A DNA stretch of 32,000 nucleotides from Archaeoglobus fulgidus DSM 4304 (GCF_000008665.1 NC_000917.1:300001-332000), one strand, 5' to 3'; positions 8,265 to 23,139 are shown, counted from the stretch's first letter. Notes: generated by a model from the letters alone, not told the origin. Numbers and translations are program-made.

Positions 8265-8483
8265 TTAAAGCTCCCTCAGAGCAAGCTTGATGTCATCCAC
8301 CTTTACCGTCTTTCTCCCAGCATGTTTTGCCAGCTCAGCAGCCTTTTTGCCAATTTGCATGGCGTATTCTTCTATGGCCTTCGCCAGTTCCACCTTTGCA
8401 TCCTCACTGACCCTTGAAGCTCCAGCCTTTCTCAGAAGCCTTTCCACAGGAGCAAGTGGAAGCTCCACCCTTAACACCTCCAT
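8265..8483 (-). CDS. Archaeal histone (HMf family)
   Basis: A 72-aa histone fold: [20 protein letters not shown]...[17 protein letters not shown]-type sequence. Confidence 0.92.
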
Positions 8484-8759: not shown

Positions 8760-10388
8760 TCAGAGTTCCTCAACGCCGAGGCGCTTCATCGCCCTCTCGG
8801 GATTCACCTGGTAGGTATGTATGACCGCAGAGACGTCTTTGAACATTCTTATTCCGTTGGAGAGCATAAACTCCAGCACTCTCCTCCTCCTCTCAAGCTC
8901 CTCGTTCAGCTCCCTCACACTCCACCCTCTCTGCCTCCTTATCTCCTCCAGAGCTTTGGAAGTTCCAACCATCGCGTGCTCGTCCTTAACGCTGTCCCAC
9001 TGGAATACGGTTGAGGTTCTCAGCATCTTTGTGTGCGCATCCAAACCGACAATCTCCGCAATCTCCATGTTCCTCCTAACTCTCCTGTCCCCAACGTAAG
9101 TTTGGGCCTGGATGCTTATAATGTCAAGAGCCTCGAGCATCGGCCTCGGCACTCCAATTGGCGGGTTTTCAAGCCTGTGTATCGCACCGCTTATGCTGTC
9201 AGCGTGCAGTGTTGAGTAGGTTGTGTGGCCTGTAGCCATCGCCTGGAAGAGCGTTAAAGCCTCCCTCCCTCTAACCTCACCGACTATTATGTACTCAGGC
9301 CTCTGCCTCAATGCCGCTCTGAGCAAATCGTACATGTCAACTGCTCCCTTCTCTCCGTGGAAGGCATCTCTTGTTACAGCAGGAATCCAGTTCTCGTGGG
9401 GGAGCATAAGCTCTCTTGTGTCTTCAATTGTCACTATCTTGGAGCGGCGGGGGATGAAGAGCGAGATGGCGTTCATCGAAGTGGTTTTACCGCTCGCAGT
9501 GCCGCCGGCAAAGATTAGTGACTTCTTGTTCTCGATGCAGAGCCATAGATATGCCATCTGCTCGCTGCTGAAGGTTTTCCATGCTATTAGGTCGATGGGA
9601 GTGACGGGCTCTTCGCGGAACTTTCTTATGGTGAAGGTCGAGCCGTGGTCGGTCACCTCCCTCCCCAAAGTCATCTGGATTCTGCTGCCGTCGGGCATTG
9701 TCGCGTCAACCATTGGCTCTGCGATGCTGATGTGCTTTCCGCACTTCTGGGCGAGGTTGACAACGAAGCTGTCAAGCTCATCCGGATCGTCGAAGATGAC
9801 GTTGGTGCGGAGGTTTGTGTACTTGCGGTGGAAGATGTAGATGTACTTGCCGTATCCGTTGCATGAAATGTCCTCGATCATCGGGTCGTACATTATGGGT
9901 GTTATCTTGCCGTAAAGGATAGTTCGCTTGAAAATGTGGTAAAGAACTCTGAAGTAATCCGAACCTTCAAGGTTTACTCTGTAAGCCTCAAGGATGGAAT
10001 CTATTTTCTTTTTGAGCGTTCCAACTTTGTCCCCAATTTCCTTGGGGTTTGCGGCATAGTACTCAAGCCTGCCGATCACATTCTTGACAATTTTCTCCTC
10101 CTCTTCACTCAGCTTGGGCTCGTTGACGTGATAAATGAACTCGTTATCTTCCTCATTATAGAGGATGTGAACGCTTGAGATTACGAATCTGCCGTAAACG
10201 GGATAACCCTCAACCTCAATCCACCCTTCAGGAGGTTCAAATTCCTGCGAAAGCCTCTTTGAGAGTGTTCTATAGGTTTCCTCACCGAGAAACTCCTCCT
10301 TTGCACCTTTTTTTATTATCTCGAAAACAGCAGTTCTTCTTGGAACTTCATCCTCCTTCTTTTTGAAGCTGAAGCGAAGAGTGGGCAT
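8760..10388 (-). CDS. Type II/IV secretion-family ATPase (FlaI/ArlI / VirB11 / GspE-like)
   Basis: Has Walker A AGGTASGKTT, Walker B YIIVGEVRG and His box TGHTTYSTLHA. I place the start at ATG 10388 (MPTLRFSF..), because the track's longer ORF (to 10547) runs through an AT-rich divergent promoter and into the ADH gene. Confidence 0.85.
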   Translation of the reverse strand: MPTLRFSFKKKEDEVPRRTAVFEIIKKGAKEEFLGEETYRTLSKRLSQEFEPPEGWIEVEGYPVYGRFVISSVHILYNEEDNEFIYHVNEPKLSEEEEKIVKNVIGRLEYYAANPKEIGDKVGTLKKKIDSILEAYRVNLEGSDYFRVLYHIFKRTILYGKITPIMYDPMIEDISCNGYGKYIYIFHRKYTNLRTNVIFDDPDELDSFVVNLAQKCGKHISIAEPMVDATMPDGSRIQMTLGREVTDHGSTFTIRKFREEPVTPIDLIAWKTFSSEQMAYLWLCIENKKSLIFAGGTASGKTTSMNAISLFIPRRSKIVTIEDTRELMLPHENWIPAVTRDAFHGEKGAVDMYDLLRAALRQRPEYIIVGEVRGREALTLFQAMATGHTTYSTLHADSISGAIHRLENPPIGVPRPMLEALDIISIQAQTYVGDRRVRRNMEIAEIVGLDAHTKMLRTSTVFQWDSVKDEHAMVGTSKALEEIRRQRGWSVRELNEELERRRRVLEFMLSNGIRMFKDVSAVIHTYQVNPERAMKRLGVEEL

Positions 10389-10465
10389 CAGAAGATTTCG
10401 GTATTTAAAATTAAAAAATGTTTCGTGTAAAAGTGAAAGAATGACAAAATGAACATTGAAAAACA

Positions 10466-10473
10466 TTTTATAT
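10466..10473 (+). promoter_or_regulatory. Putative TATA box (TTTTATAT) for the ADH-AOR operon
   Basis: Lies 21-28 nt upstream of ATG 10494. This supports the shorter ADH start. Confidence 0.4.
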
Positions 10474-10493
10474 TGTTCAATCATCCTCTCATC

Positions 10494-11636
10494 ATGTGGT
10501 GGTTTGTTGTACCAAAGACAGTTTTCGGTGACGATGCCATTGAGCACCTGCAGAGCGAGAGAGCAGAGAGGGTGCTGATTGTAACTGACAAGGTTCTGAG
10601 CGAGATGAGCTACCTTGAGGAGGTAAAGAAAAATCTCAAGGCGGAGAGAATAGAGGTTTTCGACGAGGTAGAGCCGGAGCCGAGCATAGAAACTGCCCTA
10701 AAATGCTCAAAAGTGGCGAGAGAGCTTGATGCGCAGCTCATAATCGCTCTCGGTGGTGGCAGCGTTATGGACGTTGCGAAGATGGCGAGGATACTGATGG
10801 AGCTTGACGTCGATCCAGAGTTCATCACGCCCTTTACAGATCTCTATGAGCTCGGTTTTCAAAAGAAAGCAAAGCTCATCGCCATTCCGACAACCAGCGG
10901 CACGGGAGCGGATGCAACATGGGCAATGGTGCTTACCGACACCAAGGAAAAGAGAAAAGTTCTTCCTGCGAACAGAGAAGCGATACCGGATTTAACAATA
11001 CTCGACTACAGGTTTGTTGAAAACCTTCCGCCCAAGCTCGTAGCCGGCACGGGAATGGATGCGCTAACCCATGCAATCGAGGGTGCTCTGGCTCCGTGGA
11101 GAAACGACTTCAGCGATGCAATGTGCGAGAAGGCAATTGAATTAATCTTCGACAACCTTGAGAAGTCTTACAACGGGGACAAGGAGGCGAGGGCTAAGAT
11201 GCACCACGCCGCAACGATGGCCGGAATGGGATTCGGAAACTCTCAGGTGGGGCCGGTGCACTCCTTGGGCCATGCTTTCGGAGCCTACTTCAAGGTGCAC
11301 CACGGCATTTGCGTTGCGGTGTTCCTCCCCTACGTTTTGCAGTTCTACCTTAACGATGAAGGCTCGAGGGCAATGATGGATTATCTGGCTGGTAGGGTTG
11401 GATTGGAGAGCGGAGAGTCTATGGTGGAGAAAGTAATGGACCTCATGAAGAAGATAGAGGCTCCGACAAAGGTTTCAGACATTGTTGGTGAGAAGGAGTA
11501 CTTTGGGGCAATTGAGGATATATGGAGCCATGCTATCAACGATGCGTGCATGATTACCTCTCCGAGATGTCCAGACACCGAGCAAACGAGGAAGCTGCTT
11601 GAGTACGCATTCTACGGAAAGAGGGTTGACTTCTGA
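10494..11636 (+). CDS. Iron-containing (group III) alcohol dehydrogenase
   Basis: Has GGGSVMDVAK, TTSGTGAD, and the His cluster HAIEG / HSLGHAFGAYFKVHHG. The N-terminus MWWFVVPKTVFG is typical for the family, so the track start at 10449 is probably too long. Confidence 0.85.
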   Translation: MWWFVVPKTVFGDDAIEHLQSERAERVLIVTDKVLSEMSYLEEVKKNLKAERIEVFDEVEPEPSIETALKCSKVARELDAQLIIALGGGSVMDVAKMARILMELDVDPEFITPFTDLYELGFQKKAKLIAIPTTSGTGADATWAMVLTDTKEKRKVLPANREAIPDLTILDYRFVENLPPKLVAGTGMDALTHAIEGALAPWRNDFSDAMCEKAIELIFDNLEKSYNGDKEARAKMHHAATMAGMGFGNSQVGPVHSLGHAFGAYFKVHHGICVAVFLPYVLQFYLNDEGSRAMMDYLAGRVGLESGESMVEKVMDLMKKIEAPTKVSDIVGEKEYFGAIEDIWSHAINDACMITSPRCPDTEQTRKLLEYAFYGKRVDF

Positions 11637-17858: not shown

Positions 17859-18239
17859 ATGGTAGAAGGTAGTCAGGAGGCAAAGGTCGCAGAGATACTC
17901 CAAAAAATGGAGGAGATGATAGGCGAGGAGCCAAAGCCGCAGAAGCTATTCTCCAAGGTCGCTCCGGAGTGGCTGGAGAGGCAGATGGATGAGAGGCAGT
18001 TCGTGATGAGCCTTGAGAGCATTCCTGAGAAGTACAAGCACCTGATAATGATTGCCGTTGCAGCTGCAGTGGGAAGCAAGATGTGCACAGAGGTTTTCAC
18101 GAAGATTGCAAAGCGGAGGGGTGTGAGCGAGAGGGAGATTGGAGAAGCTATACTGGTTGCAAGGTTCGCCTTAGCTTCGACGATCTTCGCAACCGTAACT
18201 CCAGCATTGGAATGGCTTGAGGGAGGTGATGAAGAATGA
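17859..18239 (+). CDS. Carboxymuconolactone decarboxylase (CMD) / AhpD-like family protein
   Basis: The core PEKYKHLIMIAVAAAVGSKMCTEVFTKIAKRRGVSEREIGEAILVA is typical of the CMD family. Only one Cys sits at the usual CxxC position. Confidence 0.7.
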   Translation: MVEGSQEAKVAEILQKMEEMIGEEPKPQKLFSKVAPEWLERQMDERQFVMSLESIPEKYKHLIMIAVAAAVGSKMCTEVFTKIAKRRGVSEREIGEAILVARFALASTIFATVTPALEWLEGGDEE

Positions 18240-18490
18240 AAGTTCTCGTTCCGCTGGACTTCTCGAAGGAGGCGGAGAAGGCGCTTGAGAAGTACGACGT
18301 TGAGAAGAGGATTGTAAAGGCAGGGAAATGCTGGAAAGTAATCATCGACACAGCGGAGGAGGAAGGAGTTGACATGATAGTGATGACGGAGAGGGGAAGT
18401 GGTGCGGTTGCGGAGATCGGCGATGCGCTCGGCTCCTGTGCTGAGAAGGTTGCGAGGCATGCCAGAAACCCTGTGTTAATAGTGAGGTGA
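18236..18490 (+). CDS. Shortened universal stress protein (UspA-like, 84 aa)
   Basis: Has a USP N-terminus (MKVLVPLDFSKEAEKAL) and C-terminus (VDMIVMTERGSG..LGSCAEKVARHARNPVLIVR), but about 50 central residues are missing. Its ATGA overlaps the upstream gene. Confidence 0.6.
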   Translation: MKVLVPLDFSKEAEKALEKYDVEKRIVKAGKCWKVIIDTAEEEGVDMIVMTERGSGAVAEIGDALGSCAEKVARHARNPVLIVR

Positions 18491-18495
18491 TTTGA

Positions 18496-19055
18496 ATGGA
18501 CCCGATAACCGCCACGCTGCTTTTCGTTACCGGGCTGATAGCCGGAACGCTCGGCGGTCTGCTTGGCATTGGTGGCTGCGTTATAATGCTCCCTGCCCTC
18601 GCATTCCTCTTCAACTACCCGCTGCCGGTAGCGATAGGGACGACGATAACGGCTGTGATTTTAACCGCAAGCTCCGGAGCTGTAGGCCACATAAGGCTGA
18701 AGAACGTGGACTACTCAACTGCAAAGGTTGTTGCGGCAAGCGGTGCGGTTGGGGCTGCAGTTGGGAGCATAATCTTCTTCTACATCGCAAACCAGCTGTG
18801 GCTTCTGAACTTCATCCTCGGCTTTGCCTTCCTCTACGTCAGCATAGGATGATTTACGAGGGAACGATAAAGAGGGCGATGCCCGAAAAGCCCGGAAATG
18901 AGGTTCCCGGCTCAAGCACGGCGAAAGCAACCATAGGATTCGTTATAGGTATCATCACGGGAATCGTCGGGCTTGGAGGAGGATACGCTCTTGTTCCTTC
19001 ATTCATATACCTCCTCGGCTCGGCCGTGAAAATAGCCGTTGGCACCTCACTGGCT
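18496..19055 (+). pseudogene. Decayed TauE/SafE (DUF81) sulfite-exporter-family membrane protein: frameshifted and 3'-truncated
   Basis: The first half (118 aa; GLLGIGGCVIMLPAL..AIGTT) ends at TGA 18850-18852. The second repeat (GIVGLGGGYALVPSF..AVGTSLA) continues in another frame from about 18849. No hydrophobic continuation exists in any frame after about 19055. Confidence 0.7.
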
Positions 19056-19183
19056 GAAGTACTGCTACCTCCGTTTCTACCTCAGACCAAAGTTCATATG
19101 GAAGGAAATCAGAAAGGGTCGCTTTAAGGTTGTCCAGGAGATTGTAATGAGGGCTATAAAGGGAGGTAGGGAGAGCTAAATCA

Positions 19184-19266: not shown

Positions 19267-19308
19267 TTAAATTGCGTTTACGTAGCGGATAAAGAAAATT
19301 TTGGTCGC

Positions 19309-19989
19309 TTAAAAAATCTCCGCTTCTTCGTAAACAACTATTCCAGAATCGGTGATGATGTATGGCTTGGGCTTTCTTGAATGCTTGACTCTCCTCATTT
19401 TAACGACCTCAAGCCCCAAGGTGGGCTCATCGAGCTCGCTCTTCCTGACAACCTTCAGGCTGATCATACCATCGCAGATGTACTCCAGAATTCCGTACTT
19501 CGAGGTGTTCGGCTGGTATTTGTCCGCCTCGCTTGTAATTATTGCGGTAATGCCGTTTTCCTTGAGCATTTTTCTGAAAGCTGCGAGCATGCTGTATCTG
19601 CCTGCATCATCGAAAAGCGTCTCGAGAACGCTTATGGAATCAACCAGCATTCTACTAACTCCTAAACTTCTGACGATCTCAGGTAAATCGCTCTCCAGCT
19701 TTTCGAGGCTTTTTTTAACCTCCGACGCCTCCAGCCTGACTATGTGGACTTTGTCTCCAAAGGCCGTCAAGTCCATTCCCACGCTCTTAGCATCCCCAAT
19801 TATGCTCTCCTCATCCTCGTCAAAGCTAATAATCATGCACGCCTCCCCATTCTTCAAGCCCTCGTAGATGAAGTGCAGACCCAGCGTCGTCTTGCCGGTT
19901 CCGTACTGGCCAACAACCGCAACAATATGCCCCTCGGGAATCCCCCCACCCAGAATTGCATCCAGTCCCTCAATCCCCGTCTTCAGCAT
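19309..19989 (-). CDS. KaiC/RadC-like RecA-superfamily ATPase, single domain, all catalytic motifs intact (cassette gene D)
   Basis: Has GIEGLDAILGGGIP, Walker A GQYGTGKT, the acidic cluster ISFDEDEE, Walker B RMLVDS and KMRRVKHS. Confidence 0.85.
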   Translation of the reverse strand: MLKTGIEGLDAILGGGIPEGHIVAVVGQYGTGKTTLGLHFIYEGLKNGEACMIISFDEDEESIIGDAKSVGMDLTAFGDKVHIVRLEASEVKKSLEKLESDLPEIVRSLGVSRMLVDSISVLETLFDDAGRYSMLAAFRKMLKENGITAIITSEADKYQPNTSKYGILEYICDGMISLKVVRKSELDEPTLGLEVVKMRRVKHSRKPKPYIITDSGIVVYEEAEIF

Positions 19990-19998
19990 CCGACCACC

Positions 19999-20760
19999 TC
20001 ACATGACCCTCATGATCCTCGAAATCGTGAAGCCTATTACAGGATCGATTTTTACTGAGTATTTAACAATTCTCTCCTTTTCTATCTTGGGCAGCAGTCC
20101 AAGGAACTTTCTAAAGTACATCCAACGCAGTATTGTGTCTTTTTCAACTGACCACTCAAAAATGACCACTCCATCAGCCTGGTCGAGCATTTCCTCTTCC
20201 TTCCCCTTCTCGAAAACCTCCGAAGTCAGGAGAGCGGTTAGCAGAATGTTGTTCTTTATACAGTAAACCCTTATACCCTTCAGCAGGTCAACGAAGTTCT
20301 CCCAGCCAAGTCTGTTCACCGCCGCCCTGGCAAGGTCTGTGAGGGAGTCCAAAAAAACGTAGCTGTTACTCTCAAGGCCGTCAAAGAACTCAACGAGCTT
20401 CGTAAACAGATTCTTCTCACCCTTCAATAGCTCGATCGCAACTCCCCTCTCAGAAACCCACTTGAGGGGAACAAGCGTGTCCTTGAAGTAAAAGTCCGCA
20501 AGGCTCACTACTTCAATATCAGGTACGCTGCCCCTTTCGGGGATGGCGCTTTCGAGCTCCTTTTTAACGACGTCAATTGGCTTTGAGATGGACAGATACC
20601 GGATTTTGAACTTGTCCGCGTTGTTGAACATCGAAGTTACTGCAAACTCTCTGCCCCCTGCTCCGGCGTTCTCGTAGAGAATCACCAAACCCGGTGGGAA
20701 GCCCCCTATCTGCTTGTCCAGAAATTCGAGGCCTGTTGGAAAAGTCTCAGTCAACTTCAA
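19999..20760 (-). CDS. KaiC-like paralog with degenerate P-loop (cassette gene C)
   Basis: TGLEFLDKQIGGFPPG is conserved, but the P-loop position reads ENAGAGGREF (no GK[TS]). A Walker B-like YVFLDSLTDL is retained. Confidence 0.7.
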   Translation of the reverse strand: MKLTETFPTGLEFLDKQIGGFPPGLVILYENAGAGGREFAVTSMFNNADKFKIRYLSISKPIDVVKKELESAIPERGSVPDIEVVSLADFYFKDTLVPLKWVSERGVAIELLKGEKNLFTKLVEFFDGLESNSYVFLDSLTDLARAAVNRLGWENFVDLLKGIRVYCIKNNILLTALLTSEVFEKGKEEEMLDQADGVVIFEWSVEKDTILRWMYFRKFLGLLPKIEKERIVKYSVKIDPVIGFTISRIMRVM

Positions 20761-21307
20761 TCACCTCATCGACCATCAGGGAAATCTGGGAGTAGTAGCT
20801 CTCGTCCATTTCCTTCTCAATGGTGAAGATTGTTCCTACAAAACCCCTTAACCTCATTTTTCCTGTGAGATGCCTCAGGAACTTAACGAGGGTTTCAAAG
20901 GACTTGTAGAGAGATATCGTCGAGAGGGAGTCGAGGTAAATGAACCTATTATTTACTGTAACCAGGTCCATTGCCCTCTCTATTGTTACCTGCAACTGTA
21001 CCGGATCGGGAGAGGTGAGGTAGAAGCACCTCTCCTCGTCAATAACCTGTCCACCGAGCTGAAGGGTAATGCAGTCGATGAAGTAAAGCTTGCTGATATC
21101 CACGCCCTCCTTCAGCAGCATCTTCTTCAGGCTGAAGTAGGGGCGGTTGAGGGTGACAAAGATTCCCTCCGCAAACTCCGTGAAGTGCTTGACCAGCTCT
21201 AAGCTCATCTTCACATACTTCTTCGAATCAACTTTAACCAGTATAATTTCCGCTCCGCGGTCTATAGCTTCTTTAACAAGCTCAACCGCGTTTGTATTCG
21301 TAGTCAT
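20747..21307 (-). CDS. N-terminally reduced RecA/KaiC-fold-like protein without P-loop (cassette gene B)
   Basis: No GxxGxGK[TS] is present. It retains a Walker B-like strand RFIYLDSLSTISL and KaiC-like C-terminal strands. It overlaps its neighbours by 26 and 14 nt. Confidence 0.55.
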   Translation of the reverse strand: MTTNTNAVELVKEAIDRGAEIILVKVDSKKYVKMSLELVKHFTEFAEGIFVTLNRPYFSLKKMLLKEGVDISKLYFIDCITLQLGGQVIDEERCFYLTSPDPVQLQVTIERAMDLVTVNNRFIYLDSLSTISLYKSFETLVKFLRHLTGKMRLRGFVGTIFTIEKEMDESYYSQISLMVDEVIEVD

Positions 21308-21998
21308 AGCTTCTCTTCACAATGTATCCGTCCTTTATAACCACACCCTCGTCAGTAATTTCGTAAGGAATCCACTCAAGCGGCACCCTCGTTCTGTACT
21401 TCTTCAGGATTCTCATCGCCCTCTGGTAACCTTCCTGAGTTCGCAGAAGGTTTAGGAAGATTACGCTGTCAACGATGTTCTTTGTGCTGCTCCAATCGCC
21501 CTGCATGGGAGCCTCCTCTATCCAGAGGGATGTAATCTCGTAATCGTAGGAGAGGTCCGACATGTAGGTCAAAGCCCTCCTGTAAAGCACCGGATCCGCC
21601 AGTGCGAGTTCGAGGTCTGTGCAGGAATCAAAAACGACTCTATCAATATCCTTACCGTCCATTCCGAAAGTTGCCCTTAGCCCTTCAACAATTTTCTCCC
21701 TCGTCAGCGGAAGAACGAACTTGGGGTCGACCCGTATGAACCTCCACTTTATTTTGTCGTAAACATCCTCCATGAACGGGAACCTGCCGAGATAGGCTTT
21801 GCAGTTTTTCTTGTTCATGGTGGTTGAGAGATACACAACAGTCTCATCATTTCTAGCCCCCTCCGCCGCCCAGTGTGCAGCAAGAATTGTTTTTCCAATT
21901 CCGCTCCTTCCAATGATCAGATTTTCGGTGTATCTGTCGAGTCCGCCGCCAAGCAACTCGTCCAGTCTGCTAATGCCGAACTTGGCAACATCGGTCAT
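21282..21998 (-). CDS. KaiC/RadC-like ATPase with intact P-loop but lacking the catalytic acidic pair (cassette gene A)
   Basis: Has GISRLDELLGGGL, Walker A GRSGIGKT and Walker B RVVFDS. The position of the KaiC EE motif reads YLSTTMNKK. Confidence 0.8.
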   Translation of the reverse strand: MTDVAKFGISRLDELLGGGLDRYTENLIIGRSGIGKTILAAHWAAEGARNDETVVYLSTTMNKKNCKAYLGRFPFMEDVYDKIKWRFIRVDPKFVLPLTREKIVEGLRATFGMDGKDIDRVVFDSCTDLELALADPVLYRRALTYMSDLSYDYEITSLWIEEAPMQGDWSSTKNIVDSVIFLNLLRTQEGYQRAMRILKKYRTRVPLEWIPYEITDEGVVIKDGYIVKRSYDYEYKRG

Positions 21999-22088
21999 AA
22001 AATAAATTGCGAATAATAGTAAATAAATTTTACTTGCAAAGTTGAAATAATGCGAAGCTGTTTAATACTTTCAGCCCCTCTTTCTTTC

Positions 22089-22259
22089 ATGCCTGCTGTG
22101 GTTGATGCTTCGCTGTGTGATGGCTGCGGCACTTGTGTAGATGAGTGCCCTGTTGGGGCTATAGAGCTCAACGACTACGCTCATGTGGATGAAGAGATAT
22201 GCACTGAATGCGGAGCTTGTGTAGACGTGTGCCCAACTGAGGCGATTAGCCTTGAGTAG
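22089..22259 (+). CDS. 2x[4Fe-4S] ferredoxin (56 aa)
   Basis: Has CDGCGTCVDECP and CTECGACVDVCP. I start it at MPAVVDASL, because the track's 13 extra N-terminal codons look non-native. Confidence 0.85.
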   Translation: MPAVVDASLCDGCGTCVDECPVGAIELNDYAHVDEEICTECGACVDVCPTEAISLE

Positions 22260-23139
22260 CGCAATAGGCTTCGGAGCTCTTAACCTCGACAAGATTTACA
22301 CCGTTGACAAAATCCCAAGGGAGGATGAAGAAGGCTTCGTCATCGATTTGAAGCTCTCTCCTGGTGGTAGTGCGGCAAACACAATTGTGGGGCTTTCGAG
22401 ACTAGGCATTGAGACAGCATACATAGGTAAGGTCGGAAGCGATGAAGAAGGCAGAATTCTCCTCGCTGATTTTGAAAGAGAGGGCGTGAGCACGGATTTC
22501 GTAATCAGGGCGGAGGGGAGAAGCGGAACTGCCATGATTTTCGTTGACGAGAAGGGAAACAGGGCCATCCTCGTCGATCCTGGTGTGAACGACACAATAG
22601 CCTACGATGAAATCGACGTCGATTCAGCGAGAAAGTACGACCTCATCCACCTAACTTCCTTCATATGCAAGAACGGTCTGGATTCGCTGAACTCGCAAAA
22701 AAGGATAGTTGAGGAGTTTGATAGTGTCAGCTTCGACCCCGGAATGCCCTACGCTGAGAGGGGACTGGGGGACATGGAGAAAATTCTGAAAAACACCACG
22801 ATATTCCTCCCAAACAGGCAGGAAATCGAGATGCTCTTTTCGGAGGATTACAGGACTGCAGCGGAACGCTGCATTGAAATGGGTATTGAAATAGTTGCGG
22901 TCAAGCTCGGCTCGGAGGGATGCTGGATAAAAAAGGGAGACAGGGAAGTTACCGTAAAGCCCGTGAGCACAAAGGTTGTTGACACAACGGGTGCGGGAGA
23001 TGCTTTCAACGCCGGATTCCTATATGGATACCTGAAAGGAAAGGACATAGAGGAGTGCGGAAGGCTCGGAAACTTTGTTGCGGCGAAGTGCATAGAAAAG
23101 TACGGTGCAAGAGAGGGCCTTCCTAGAAGTGTGGATTAA
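22252..23139 (+). CDS. PfkB-family carbohydrate/nucleoside kinase (ribokinase-like)
   Basis: Has GGSAANT and the signature [13 protein letters not shown]. The putative TTG start overlaps the ferredoxin stop by 8 nt. Confidence 0.85.

What the first reader, a model, noticed from the sequence alone, without database searches (positions are those of the whole stretch)
19309..21998. Four tandem, overlapping KaiC/RadC-like genes with graded loss of catalytic motifs
Four co-oriented minus-strand genes are packed with 26-nt and 14-nt overlaps and one 9-nt gap, so they probably form one transcript.
- Gene A (21282-21998) keeps the Walker A motif GRSGIGKT and Walker B, but the KaiC catalytic EE position reads YLSTTMNKK.
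- Gene B (20747-21307) has no P-loop and no N-terminal GxD..GGG motif, but keeps a Walker-B-like strand (FIYLDSLS).
- Gene C (19999-20760) keeps the N-terminal motif, but its P-loop reads ENAGAGGREF.
- Gene D (19309-19989) has every motif: GQYGTGKT, ISFDEDEE, LVDS and KMRR.

One fully competent ATPase plus three progressively disabled paralogs suggests an obligate hetero-oligomeric ring, or an ATPase with dedicated pseudo-enzyme regulators. Single-domain archaeal KaiC-like proteins have been proposed as signalling hubs and as RadA paralogs (aRadC) in DNA repair. I know of no characterised four-paralog cassette like this one. The cassette ends 42 nt from tRNA-Leu and lies about 1.1 kb from XPB-Bax1.
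Basis: partly seen in the sequence, partly recalled or inferred. Interest (0 to 1): 0.72.

Follow-up and report, generated by a model that had tools for sequence, protein, structure and literature searches.

The report
Conserved operon of four KaiC-like paralogs
Four neighbouring Archaeoglobus fulgidus genes (AF_0354 to AF_0351) all encode KaiC/RecA-fold proteins, only one of which keeps a complete ATPase site; they form a conserved, uncharacterised operon that probably builds a mixed active/inactive protein complex and may work with type IV pilus machinery rather than with DNA repair.

Summary
Four co-oriented minus-strand genes, A to D, lie at the stated coordinates with the stated overlaps and motifs. 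They are A. fulgidus AF_0354 to AF_0351.

All four have the KaiC/RecA fold:
- A and D by sequence (Pfam KaiC; D also passes TIGR03880).
- B and C by confident AlphaFold models whose best PDB matches are SSO2452, FlaH, PH0284/PH0186 and KaiC.

The motif pattern is ancient specialisation, not decay. P-loop-less B is the most conserved of the four.

The order A-B-C-D is kept in 27 of 44 species-level loci of Archaeoglobi, and also in Methermicoccus. C-D is the core: every C-like gene examined, in seven archaeal lineages, sits next to a canonical KaiC ATPase. The only exception is one MAG locus. A-B is an accessory pair.

XPB-Bax1 and tRNA-Leu adjacency occurs only in the closest relatives, so a DNA-repair link is unsupported.

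In four independent lineages the cassette, or its C-D core, lies within PilB3-type type IV pilus gene clusters. The window itself carries such an ATPase 8.8 kb away.

Best reading: hetero-oligomeric KaiC-like switch modules, analogous to ArlH acting with ArlI. Physical interaction is untested.

The parts
21282..21998 (-). Gene A (AF_0354, 238 aa). Single-domain KaiC-like protein. It keeps Walker A (G30..G33-I-G35-K36-T37), Walker B (D124) and a K-x-R motif (LKKYR), but has T60/M61 where D has the catalytic acidic pair D57/E58. Predicted to bind ATP with impaired hydrolysis.
   Evidence: Pfam PF06745 scores 88.1 bits against a cut-off of 26.6. BLASTP to D gives 26% identity, E 3e-12. hhalign A-D gives E 1.3e-22. 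The motifs are conserved in 30 orthologues and in Methermicoccus.
20747..21307 (-). Gene B (AF_0353, 186 aa). KaiC-fold pseudo-ATPase. It lacks the N-terminal motif and the P-loop; strand 21-26 runs straight into helix 28-45. DSLST (126-130) is invariant. It is the most conserved of the four proteins.
   Evidence: Pfam hits are all below threshold: DUF835, DUF7504 and KaiC at E 3e-5 to 1e-4. The AF2 model has pLDDT 90.9 and pTM 0.87. Foldseek PDB top hits are KaiC, FlaH, PH0284 (TMq 0.71), PH0321 and SSO2452. The family profile finds FlaH 4yds at E 0.0019. Mean pairwise identity is 0.735, against D 0.705, A 0.657 and C 0.545.
19999..20760 (-). Gene C (AF_0352, 253 aa from the first TTG; 251 aa from the TTG at 20754). 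KaiC-fold pseudo-ATPase. It keeps the N-terminal TGxxxLD..GG motif, and its degenerate P-loop is E30-N-A-G33-A-G35-G36-R37-E38-F39, with Lys replaced by Gly and Thr by Arg/Lys. Walker-B-like FLDSLTDL and the strand RWMYFRKF (R212, R217, K218) are conserved.
   Evidence: The window protein has no Pfam hit; its homologues carry precomputed DUF7125 or KaiC hits. The AF2 model has pLDDT 85.6 and pTM 0.85. Foldseek PDB top hits are SSO2452 at 9.6e-13, then FlaH, PH0186, KaiC and PH0284. hhalign to D and A is colinear over 170-187 columns but weak, E about 0.01. Invariant columns come, and the wider family motif GExGAGxxEF.
19309..19989 (-). Gene D (AF_0351, 226 aa). Canonical single-domain KaiC-type ATPase. 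It has Walker A K33/T34, catalytic pair D57/E58, Walker B D117 and K197-x-R199 (equivalent to KaiC CI KLRG). It has E169/Y170 at the positions of the KaiC-CII phosphosites S431/T432, so it resembles CI.
   Evidence: Pfam PF06745 scores 228.6 bits, and NCBIfam TIGR03880 KaiC_arch_3 scores 332.5 bits against a cut-off of 249.45. phmmer against the PDB finds KaiC at E 1e-38 to 7e-46, with the residue-level alignment shown.
22020..22030 (-). TATA-like box (aaaTTTATTTa) 22-29 nt upstream of the ATG of A. It probably drives a leaderless transcript that starts at A.
   Evidence: Read directly from the sequence. A TTTAWWTA-like box sits at the same distance before A in nearly all orthologous loci. Function is inferred; no transcript data were available.
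20761..20767 (-). Shine-Dalgarno-like GAGGTGA immediately before the TTG start of C, inside the 3' end of B. It suggests translational coupling.
   Evidence: Sequence.
19994..20000 (-). Shine-Dalgarno-like GAGGTGG overlapping the stop codon of C, 4 nt before the ATG of D.
   Evidence: Sequence.
19291..19316 (-). T-rich tracts (TTTTTT at the end of D, then TTTTCTTT). This is a plausible archaeal oligo-T terminator before the tRNA-Leu gene.
   Evidence: Sequence only; inferred.
8760..10547 (-). PilB3-type type II/IV secretion ATPase (T2SSE) with no adjacent TadC, 8.8 kb from D. It is a possible functional partner, but its membership of the system is an inference.
   Evidence: Pfam T2SSE at 8.3e-39 plus PilB3_C. 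It is 50% identical over 495 aa to the T2SSE that sits in the C-D locus of Methanoperedens. It also matches those of L027, L044 and L054.

Best explanation
AF_0354 to AF_0351 form one operon encoding four specialised single-domain KaiC/RecA-fold proteins, organised as two pairs.

The pairs:
- Core pair: D, a complete CI-like KaiC ATPase, plus C, a pseudo-ATPase whose P-loop has lost the Lys/Thr but keeps a glycine-rich loop and a conserved basic strand.
- Accessory pair: A, which has an intact P-loop and Walker B but no catalytic acidic pair, so it is an ATP-binding, slow or non-hydrolysing switch like ArlH/FlaH; plus B, a truncated P-loop-less KaiC fold.

Inferred mechanism:
- RecA/KaiC active sites lie at subunit interfaces. 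The proteins therefore probably assemble into hetero-oligomers (C with D, A with B, possibly mixed rings).
- In such assemblies only the D sites turn over ATP.
- The inactive subunits supply trans-acting residues and docking surfaces, giving a nucleotide-dependent switch.

Inferred role, with less confidence: gene neighbourhoods in other lineages suggest that the output is a PilB3/TadC-type type IV pilus machine, by analogy with ArlH acting on ArlI in the archaellum.

What is shown: fold, motif states, conservation, pairing and gene order. What is inferred: co-transcription, physical assembly, division of labour and the T4P connection.
For: Fold:
- A and D match by sequence.
- B and C match through confident models whose top PDB hits are all KaiC-family, plus weak profile hits to PH0186, SSO2452 and FlaH.

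Operon:
- The same order and strand are kept in 27 of 44 species-level loci; 3 more are cut by contig ends.
- A/B overlap by 17-41 nt in 27 of 29 loci.
- B/C mostly overlap by 4-28 nt.
- C/D lie between -4 and +9 nt in A-B-C-D loci.
- There is a conserved TATA-like box only 22-29 nt before A, and SD motifs before C and D.

Purifying selection on the 'dead' members:
- B is the most conserved of the four.
- Invariant residues cluster in the degenerate P-loop of C and in DSLST of B.
- The same motif states are found in Methermicoccus.

Pair logic:
- A and B always co-occur.
- C-like is next to a canonical KaiC ATPase in Archaeoglobi, Methanoperedens, Methermicoccus, Alkanophagales, Thermoplasmata, Syntropharchaeales and Methanocorpusculum.
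- The C family is small and distinct: 235 representatives among 1.84 billion proteins.

T4P link:
- Methermicoccus: T2SSE-T2SSF-pilin-like-A-B-C-D on one strand.
- Archaeoglobus JdFR-22: T2SSE-T2SSF-adhesin-DUF7504-KaiC/GTPase-Roadblock-V4R-C-D on one strand.
- Alkanophagales: pilin-C-D divergent from PilB3-TadC-pilins.
- Methanoperedens: C-D-pilin...T2SSE-T2SSF.
- The window has a PilB3-type ATPase 8.8 kb away.

Literature:
- Archaeal single-domain KaiC-like proteins PH0284 and PH0186 crystallise as hexamers, and FlaH binds ATP without hydrolysing it and acts through FlaI (PMC5019145).
- KaiC-family genes are associated with archaeal T4P loci (PMC4858521).
Against: - There is no direct evidence of interaction. 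I could not run multimer prediction, and no transcript or proteomic data for these genes were found.
- Sequence-level homology of B and C to A and D is weak: hhalign E about 0.01 for C and nothing for B. Their assignment therefore rests on predicted structures.
- None of the roughly 29 A-B-C-D loci of Archaeoglobi (about 0.4 Mb) has a T2SSE within 8 kb.
- Thermoplasmata, Syntropharchaeales and Methanocorpusculum C-D loci lack T4P genes nearby. The T4P link is therefore recurrent but not universal, and the window's T2SSE could be a coincidence.
- One MAG locus (L019) has A-B-C without D.
- Assigning C's R217/K218 as a trans-acting finger rests on alignment only.
Confidence: 0.5

Rival explanations
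1. The four proteins are independent homo-oligomeric KaiC-like regulators. They are merely co-transcribed, for example as parallel signalling hubs in the sense of Makarova et al. 2017, and do not form mixed complexes.
For: PH0284 and PH0186 form homo-hexamers (PMC5019145). H. volcanii has four dispersed KaiC homologues that act separately (PMC3941300). C-D exists without A-B in many genomes, so at least the two pairs are separable.
Against: B lacks the whole nucleotide site and C lacks the Walker Lys, so neither could run a homomeric ATPase cycle. Even so, they are under strong constraint. C is next to a D-type ATPase in every lineage examined, with tightly overlapping frames.
Confidence: 0.2
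2. The cassette is a DNA repair or recombination mediator set: RadA paralogs of the aRadC/Rad55-57 type that work with the nearby XPB-Bax1 helicase-nuclease.
For: Public names include 'RAD55 family ATPase' for A. The best structural match of C is SSO2452, a RadA paralog. XPB-Bax1 lies 1.1 kb away. Eukaryotic Rad51 paralogs form heteromeric complexes with degenerate ATPase sites (general knowledge).
Against: XPB and Bax1 adjacency is seen in only the 5 closest relatives. Flanks differ in A. sulfaticallidus, A. veneficus, Methermicoccus and others. D matches KaiC far better (E 1e-38 to 1e-46) than SSO2452 (2e-21) or RecA (1e-6). RadA and RadB NCBIfam models are far below cut-off.
Confidence: 0.08
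3. B and C, and perhaps A, are decaying duplicates of D with no function of their own, that is, a series of degenerating paralogs.
For: The catalytic motifs are lost in different degrees.
Against: The reading frames are intact in dozens of species. B is the most conserved of the four (0.735 mean pairwise identity, 29% invariant columns). The altered motifs themselves are invariant. The same states are found in Methermicoccus and in a family spanning several archaeal orders.
Confidence: 0.02
4. It is a KaiC-based timing or stress-signalling module unrelated to pili. The T4P neighbourhoods reflect only the general tendency of KaiC-like genes to sit near surface-structure loci.
For: Most loci, including all A-B-C-D loci of Archaeoglobi, lack T4P genes within 8 kb. 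Seventeen loci instead share a divergent ferredoxin-PfkB kinase pair. KaiC-like ATPases have been proposed as general hubs (cited in PMC5847659).
Against: D has Glu/Tyr at the KaiC phosphosite positions. No KaiB-, KaiA- or MEDS-type partner is in the window. Same-strand embedding in PilB3/TadC clusters recurs in four separate lineages.
Confidence: 0.2

Closest known systems
ArlH/FlaH, the KaiC-like ATP-binding subunit of the archaellum motor that acts on the T2SSE ATPase ArlI/FlaI
   Same: Both are single-domain KaiC/RecA folds. FlaH is among the top structural matches of B and C and the best PDB sequence-profile hit of B. Like A, FlaH binds ATP without detectable hydrolysis (PMC5019145). In several lineages both are encoded beside a T2SSE/T2SSF pair.
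   Different: The NCBIfam ArlH model is far below cut-off: D 49 bits and A 24 bits against 215. The cassette is not in an archaellum operon. It has four specialised paralogs instead of one protein, and two of them cannot bind nucleotide canonically.
Cyanobacterial circadian KaiC (CI domain)
   Same: D aligns end to end with CI, with Walker A/B, the acidic catalytic pair and KxR conserved (E 1e-38 to 7e-46).
   Different: The proteins here have one domain, not two. D has E169/Y170 instead of S431/T432. No kaiA or kaiB is nearby. Nothing suggests a clock.
PH0284, PH0186 and SSO2452, structurally solved single-domain archaeal KaiC-like / aRadC proteins
   Same: They have the same size and fold. 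They are the top Foldseek hits for B and C, and sequence hits for D at E 1e-21 to 1e-24. PH0284 and PH0186 form hexameric rings (PMC5019145).
   Different: Those are canonical P-loop proteins studied as homo-oligomers. No fixed active/inactive partner set is described for them.
Inactivated KaiC (iKaiC) domains, DUF835 and DUF7504, of archaeal signalling proteins
   Same: B gives sub-threshold hits to DUF835, DUF7504 and KaiC. The concept of a KaiC fold that has lost ATPase motifs is published (PMC5847659, citing Makarova et al. 2017).
   Different: Here the inactive domains are stand-alone proteins in a fixed operon with active paralogs, not output or sensor domains fused to REC, PAS or membrane modules.
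Eukaryotic RecA-fold paralog complexes: Elp4/5/6 heterohexamer, Rad55-Rad57 and RAD51 paralog complexes
   Same: Each is a set of RecA/KaiC-like paralogs with degenerate ATPase sites working as an obligate hetero-oligomer (general knowledge). D and the Methanoperedens C-like protein hit Pfam PAXNEB (Elp4).
   Different: The resemblance is only an analogy. No orthology has been shown, and heteromer formation is untested here.
Haloferax volcanii CirA-D KaiC homologues
   Same: Four KaiC-family paralogs occur in one archaeon. CirA lies in the arl cluster and represses motility (PMC10983859).
   Different: The cir genes are dispersed, not an operon, and all keep Walker A/B and the catalytic glutamates (PMC3941300).

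Membership tests
KaiC/RecA-superfamily ATPase domain (Pfam PF06745) | Sequence score above the Pfam gathering threshold (26.6 bits) | tested here: met
   A scores 88.1 bits and D 228.6 bits. This applies to A and D only.
KaiC/RecA-superfamily ATPase domain (Pfam PF06745) | The same threshold applied to B and C | tested here: not met
   B scores 22.3 bits, below 26.6. C has no hit. Some orthologues have precomputed PF06745 hits.
KaiC/RecA fold (structural) | Predicted structure superposes on solved KaiC-family domains | tested here: met
   The C model (pLDDT 85.6) matches 2w0m at E 9.6e-13, with TM 0.63-0.72. The B model (pLDDT 90.9) matches 7wdc, 4yds and 2dr3 at E 2e-5, with TMq up to 0.71. 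The models are predictions, not experiments.
Functional P-loop ATPase | Walker A GxxxxGK[ST], Walker B Asp, a catalytic acidic residue after strand 2, and a trans-acting K/R | tested here: met
   Met for D only: K33/T34, D117, D57/E58 and K197/R199, aligned to KaiC CI. A lacks the acidic pair (T60/M61). C lacks Lys/Thr (G36/R37). B has no P-loop.
NCBIfam TIGR03880 KaiC_arch_3 | Score above the curated cut-off of 249.45 | tested here: met
   D scores 332.5 bits. A scores only 69 bits and is not a member.
Circadian KaiC (TIGR02655 / NF006799) | Two tandem KaiC domains and a score above the cut-offs (546 / 408) | tested here: not met
   All four are single-domain proteins of 186-253 aa. D scores 86 and 126 bits.
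Circadian KaiC | Ser/Thr autophosphorylation sites (S431/T432 equivalents) | tested here: not met
   D has E169/Y170 at the aligned positions. By my reading of the alignments, A has K/N and C has L/D there.
Circadian KaiC | kaiB or kaiA partner genes nearby | tested here: not met
   No such family appears among the window ORFs scanned with Pfam.
ArlH/FlaH (NF052589) | Score above 215 and location in an arl operon next to arlI/arlJ | tested here: not met
   D scores 49 bits and A 24 bits. No archaellin, ArlI or ArlJ is adjacent. The only T2SSE is 8.8 kb away and is of PilB3 type.
RadA paralogs (RadB / aRadC) in DNA repair | Equivalog model score, or conserved linkage with repair genes | tested here: not met
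   RadB and RadA models score 13-33 bits against cut-offs of 172-361. XPB and Bax1 linkage is seen in only 5 close relatives.
DUF7504 (PF24336) / DUF835 (PF05763), for B | Score above the gathering thresholds (27 / 33.1) | tested here: inconclusive
   Window B scores 24.2 and 24.3 bits, just below threshold. Many orthologues carry precomputed PF24336 or PF05763 hits.
DUF7125 (PF23442), for C | A Pfam hit | tested here: inconclusive
   There is no hit with the local Pfam copy. The identical public protein P0001 carries a precomputed PF23442.2 hit.
Hetero-oligomeric RecA-like ring with pseudo-ATPase subunits | Physical, stoichiometric assembly of the paralogs | not testable with these tools
   Only indirect support is available: obligate gene pairing and overlapping frames.
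Type IV pilus-associated KaiC-like regulators (Makarova, Koonin & Albers 2016) | Encoded in or next to a T2SSE/TadC/pilin locus | tested here: inconclusive
   Met in Methermicoccus, Archaeoglobus JdFR-22, Alkanophagales and Methanoperedens. Not met in the window (nearest T2SSE is 8.8 kb away) or in about 29 A-B-C-D loci of Archaeoglobi.

The most novel reading that the evidence does not exclude
C-D, and A-B where present, form obligate mixed rings of active and pseudo-ATPase KaiC-fold subunits. These would be the ArlH-equivalent cytoplasmic switch of a PilB3/TadC-type archaeal type IV pilus machine. In this reading the inactive subunits supply the trans-acting finger and the docking surface for the secretion ATPase. 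It would be a prokaryotic counterpart of eukaryotic RecA-paralog hetero-complexes, and a previously unrecognised component of non-archaellar archaeal pili.
Probability: 0.2. Interest if true: 0.7.

Novelty: new variant of a known kind. Interest (0 to 1): 0.5.

Why it matters
Archaea carry many KaiC-like genes whose roles are mostly unknown. Only ArlH, CirA, GvpD and a few RadA paralogs have any experimental footing.

This cassette offers a clean, conserved test case. It has one competent ATPase, one ATP-binder without catalytic residues, and two nucleotide-site-less folds. The partnerships are fixed: C with D across at least seven archaeal lineages, and A with B.

Showing that they form hetero-oligomers would give the first prokaryotic example of a KaiC-family ring built on the active/pseudo-enzyme principle. 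That principle is already known from F1-ATPase, Elp456 and the Rad51 paralogs.

The recurrent embedding in PilB3/TadC pilus clusters also suggests a concrete, testable output for a branch of the proposed KaiC signalling network.

The finding also corrects a tempting but unsupported association with XPB-Bax1 DNA repair.

Tried and rejected
- DNA-repair link: rejected. XPB and Bax1 are conserved as neighbours in only 5 close relatives, and tRNA-Leu in 3.
- Defence system or mobile island: PADLOC gives only weak P-loop-level hits (mad8). G+C content is like the surroundings.
- Non-coding RNA in the region: Rfam finds only the tRNA.
- Direct sequence proof that B is a KaiC paralog: BLASTP finds nothing, and hhalign of narrow family profiles finds nothing significant. 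I had to rely on predicted structures.
- Literature on AF0351 to AF0354: the search returned only unrelated accession-number collisions. 'Archaeoglobus fulgidus' + KaiC returned nothing specific.
- The key paper, Makarova et al. 2017 (mBio e01959-17, PMC5717392), is not held. I cannot exclude that its supplementary neighbourhoods list this cassette.
- The supplements of Makarova et al. 2016 hold no AF035x or arCOG01172/3 entries.
- A profile search with the wider C alignment mostly re-found Archaeoglobi, because of the candidate cap.
- The Halobaculum hit (L043) and L044 were too weak or fragmentary to interpret.
- The correlation of pairwise identities between families (r 0.78-0.93) was computed, but it is not evidence of interaction, because shared phylogeny explains it.

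Full report
**Observation.** The window is Archaeoglobus fulgidus DNA. Exact copies of the four proteins are public as AAB90881, AAB90882, AAB90891 ('predicted coding region AF_0352') and AAB90883. The genes are therefore AF_0354 (A), AF_0353 (B), AF_0352 (C) and AF_0351 (D).

- A 21282-21998
- B 20747-21307
- C 19999-20760
- D 19309-19989

All are on the minus strand. The overlaps are 26 and 14 nt and the gap is 9 nt. tRNA-Leu lies 42 nt after D. C begins with TTG. The current public annotation uses the second TTG (20754), which makes the B/C overlap 8 nt. All quoted motifs are present.

**Are all four KaiC-like?**

A and D are, by sequence:
- Pfam KaiC scores are 88 and 229 bits.
- D also passes the curated NCBIfam model TIGR03880 (332 against 249 bits).
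- A and D are 26% identical (E 3e-12). Family profiles match at E 1.3e-22.

B and C are not demonstrably KaiC by simple sequence tests:
- B gives only sub-threshold hits to DUF835, DUF7504 and KaiC.
- C gives none.
- BLASTP to D is insignificant.
- hhalign gives only a colinear but weak C-D/C-A match (E about 0.01) and nothing for B.
- Profile searches of PDB sequences give weak hits of the right kind: C to PH0186 and SSO2452, and B to FlaH.

Structure prediction settles it:
- The C model has pLDDT 85.6 and pTM 0.85. The B model has pLDDT 90.9 and pTM 0.87.
- Their best solved-structure matches are exclusively KaiC-family domains: SSO2452, FlaH, PH0186, PH0284, PH0321 and KaiC CI/CII.
- Foldseek E-values go down to 1e-12 for C and 2e-5 for B, with TM-scores of 0.6-0.72.

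**Motif states are fixed, not decaying.** I built family alignments from 30-40 orthologues and a residue-level alignment of D to KaiC. They show:

| Protein | Nucleotide-site state |
|---|---|
| D | Walker A K33/T34, acidic pair D57/E58 (= KaiC E77/E78 positions), Walker B D117, K197-x-R199. E169/Y170 at the CII phosphosite positions, so it is CI-like. |
| A | Conserved GRSGIGKT and Walker B D124, and a K-x-R. T60/M61 replace the acidic pair ('STT' is conserved). |
| C | Invariant E30..G33-A-G35-G36-[RK]37-E38-F39: a glycine-rich loop without the Lys/Thr. FLDSLTDL and a conserved basic strand RWMYFRKF are also present. |
| B | The N-terminal motif and the whole P-loop are absent. DSLST is invariant. 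|

Across the 25 orthologous loci plus the window that carry all four genes, B is the most conserved. Mean pairwise identity is 0.735 for B, 0.705 for D, 0.657 for A and 0.545 for C. The same states recur in Methermicoccus orthologues. Degeneration of useless duplicates is thus excluded.

**Conservation of the cassette.** One scan of species-representative genomes with the C family returned 44 loci. HMMER assignment of six-frame ORFs shows:
- A-B-C-D in the same order and strand in 27 loci.
- Three more loci truncated by contig ends.
- One MAG locus with A-B-C but no D (L019).
- C-D alone in 11 loci (nine Archaeoglobaceae and two Methanoperedens).

Among cultured species, A. sulfaticallidus has A-B-C-D and A. 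veneficus has only C-D, both in unrelated surroundings.

Junctions are tight:
- A/B overlap by 17-41 nt in 27 of 29 loci.
- B/C mostly overlap by 4-28 nt.
- C/D lie between -4 and +9 nt in four-gene loci.

A TATA-like box lies 22-29 nt before the ATG of A, in the window and in nearly all orthologous loci. This fits a leaderless operon transcript. GAGGTGA and GAGGTGG precede C and D. Co-transcription is therefore likely but remains an inference.

**The core is a C-D pair.** A profile of the C family finds only 235 cluster representatives among 1.84 billion proteins. Ordinary KaiC proteins are not reached, so this is a small, distinct branch. Its wider consensus is GExGAGxxEF, in which the Walker Lys is not conserved.

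Members occur in Archaeoglobi, Methanoperedens, Methermicoccus, Alkanophagales, Syntropharchaeales, Methanocorpusculum and Thermoplasmata. In nearly every locus I could open, the C-like gene is followed within a few bases by a canonical KaiC ATPase. In one locus the ATPase is divergently adjacent instead. The Methermicoccus D-like protein is 40% identical to D.

A and B always co-occur. Methermicoccus shengliensis has true orthologues of all four in the same order (A 180 bits, B 118 bits).

**Genomic context.**

Neighbours that are not conserved:
- XPB and Bax1 are neighbours only in the five closest relatives.
- tRNA-Leu is a neighbour only in three.
- I find no support for a repair connection.

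A neighbour with intermediate conservation:
- A divergent ferredoxin plus PfkB-kinase pair accompanies gene A in 17 loci.
- This may be plain synteny.

Type IV pilus genes, which were unexpected:
- Methermicoccus: PilB3-type T2SSE, T2SSF/TadC, pilin-like DUF7289, then A, B, C, D on one strand.
- Archaeoglobus sp. JdFR-22: T2SSE, T2SSF, an Ig-like/DUF2341 surface protein, a P-loop-bearing DUF7504 protein, a KaiC-N/Ras-like GTPase fusion, Roadblock/LC7, V4R, then C and D, all on one strand.
- Alkanophagales: a pilin-C-D unit divergent from PilB3-TadC-pilins.
- Methanoperedens: C-D-pilin, followed 3 kb later by T2SSE-T2SSF.
- A distant B-like protein also sits with a KaiC-like ATPase and a T2SSE.
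- The window itself encodes an orphan PilB3-type ATPase at 8760-10547. It is 50% identical to the Methanoperedens one and 8.8 kb from D.

Against this:
- About 0.4 Mb of flanks around A-B-C-D loci of Archaeoglobi contain no T2SSE.
- Three other lineages lack T4P genes nearby.

[quoted passage not shown] KaiC-like ArlH acts on the T2SSE ATPase ArlI/FlaI by nucleotide-dependent binding without detectable hydrolysis (PMC5019145). KaiC-like CirA represses motility in Haloferax (PMC10983859).

**Mechanism (inferred).** RecA/KaiC nucleotide sites are formed between neighbouring subunits. Related single-domain archaeal proteins form hexamers (PMC5019145). The simplest model has five parts:
- D is the only turnover-competent subunit.
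- C is its obligate non-catalytic partner, possibly donating a basic finger from the RWMYFRKF strand.
- A is an ATP-bound switch subunit like FlaH.
- B is a nucleotide-free adaptor.
- They assemble as C-D and A-B hetero-oligomers, or as a mixed ring.

I put about 0.5 on this heteromeric-switch reading as a whole, and about 0.2-0.3 on the specific connection to a PilB3-type pilus machine.

Rivals and my rough weights:
- Independent homo-oligomers: about 0.2.
- A KaiC-type signalling module unrelated to pili: about 0.2.
- A RadA-paralog repair set: below 0.1.
- Decaying duplicates: effectively excluded.

**Comparison with the known, and novelty.**
- D is a member of TIGR03880. From memory, that model is named after AF_0351; I could not verify this here.
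- A is a KaiC-domain protein outside any curated equivalog.
- B and C are stand-alone inactivated KaiC folds, borderline to DUF7504/DUF835 and DUF7125.
- None is a clock KaiC: they have one domain, no phosphosites and no kaiB.
- None is ArlH or RadB by model score.
- Public databases already label all four 'KaiC-like domain-containing' or 'RAD55 family'.
- Inactivated KaiC domains and KaiC-T4P associations are published in general terms.

What I did not find described is the fixed four-paralog operon, the near-universal C-D pairing across orders, and the conserved division into one competent ATPase, one catalytic-residue-less ATP binder and two site-less folds.

I therefore rate this as a new variant of a known kind. 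It is of moderate interest, with clear experiments available.

Noticed in passing
window 18496-19127 (+): A TauE/SafE permease gene appears to be split by a frameshift near 18850. ORF 18496-18852 matches only profile positions 1-105 of 237. The second half (GxGGG...) continues in another frame, in ORF 18492-19127. It is either a pseudogene or a sequencing error.
   Followed up: no
window 18236-18490 (+): This universal stress protein ORF is unusually short, at 84 aa. It matches only the C-terminal part (79-141 of 141) of the Usp profile.
   Followed up: no
window 22050-23139 (+): A 2x[4Fe-4S] ferredoxin and a PfkB-family sugar kinase are transcribed divergently from gene A. The ferredoxin's real start is probably the ATG at 22089 (MPAVV...), judging from conserved upstream sequence. 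This pair accompanies the cassette in 17 of about 30 A-B-C-D loci, far more often than XPB-Bax1 does. It could be plain synteny or a shared bidirectional promoter.
   Followed up: partly
window 8760-10547 (-), with 8265-8483 (-): An orphan PilB3-type T2SSE ATPase has no adjacent TadC or pilin gene. It sits next to an archaeal histone gene and the PriL primase subunit. It is 50% identical to the T2SSE linked to the C-D pair in Methanoperedens.
   Followed up: partly
L027 5244-7990 (Archaeoglobus sp. JdFR-22): Four genes lie between a T2SSE/T2SSF/adhesin block and the C-D pair. They are a P-loop-bearing DUF7504 protein, a fusion of a KaiC N-terminal region with a Ras/Arf-like small GTPase, a Roadblock/LC7 protein and a V4R protein. 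The arrangement recalls an MglA/MglB-like polarity module embedded in a pilus locus.
   Followed up: partly
L047 (A. veneficus), L041 (Methanoperedens), L028 (Archaeoglobaceae): In three distant genomes the C-D pair lies within one to three genes of an aspartate/ornithine carbamoyltransferase gene (pyrB/pyrI or OTCase). This may be a remnant of an ancestral location.
   Followed up: no
L019 8747-9500: One Archaeoglobi MAG has A-B-C, but an unrelated opposite-strand gene occupies the place where D should be. Its close relatives L005 and L006 keep D. This could be a real loss or relocation, or a chimeric contig.
   Followed up: partly
L050 4375-8122 (uncultured, JGI 3300021156): A distant B-like (DUF7504) gene is clustered with a 112-aa ORF, a KaiC-like ATPase, a 182-aa ORF and a T2SSE ATPase. 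The cluster resembles an ArlH/ArlI arrangement that includes an inactive KaiC partner.
   Followed up: no
window 21282-21330 (C-terminus of A): A carries a conserved aromatic and charged C-terminal tail (DGYIVKRSYDYEYK). Its coding sequence overlaps the start of B by 26-41 nt in almost all loci. The tail might be a docking peptide for B. PH0321, an iKaiC-like structure that matches B, was crystallised with an unknown bound peptide. This is speculative.
   Followed up: no
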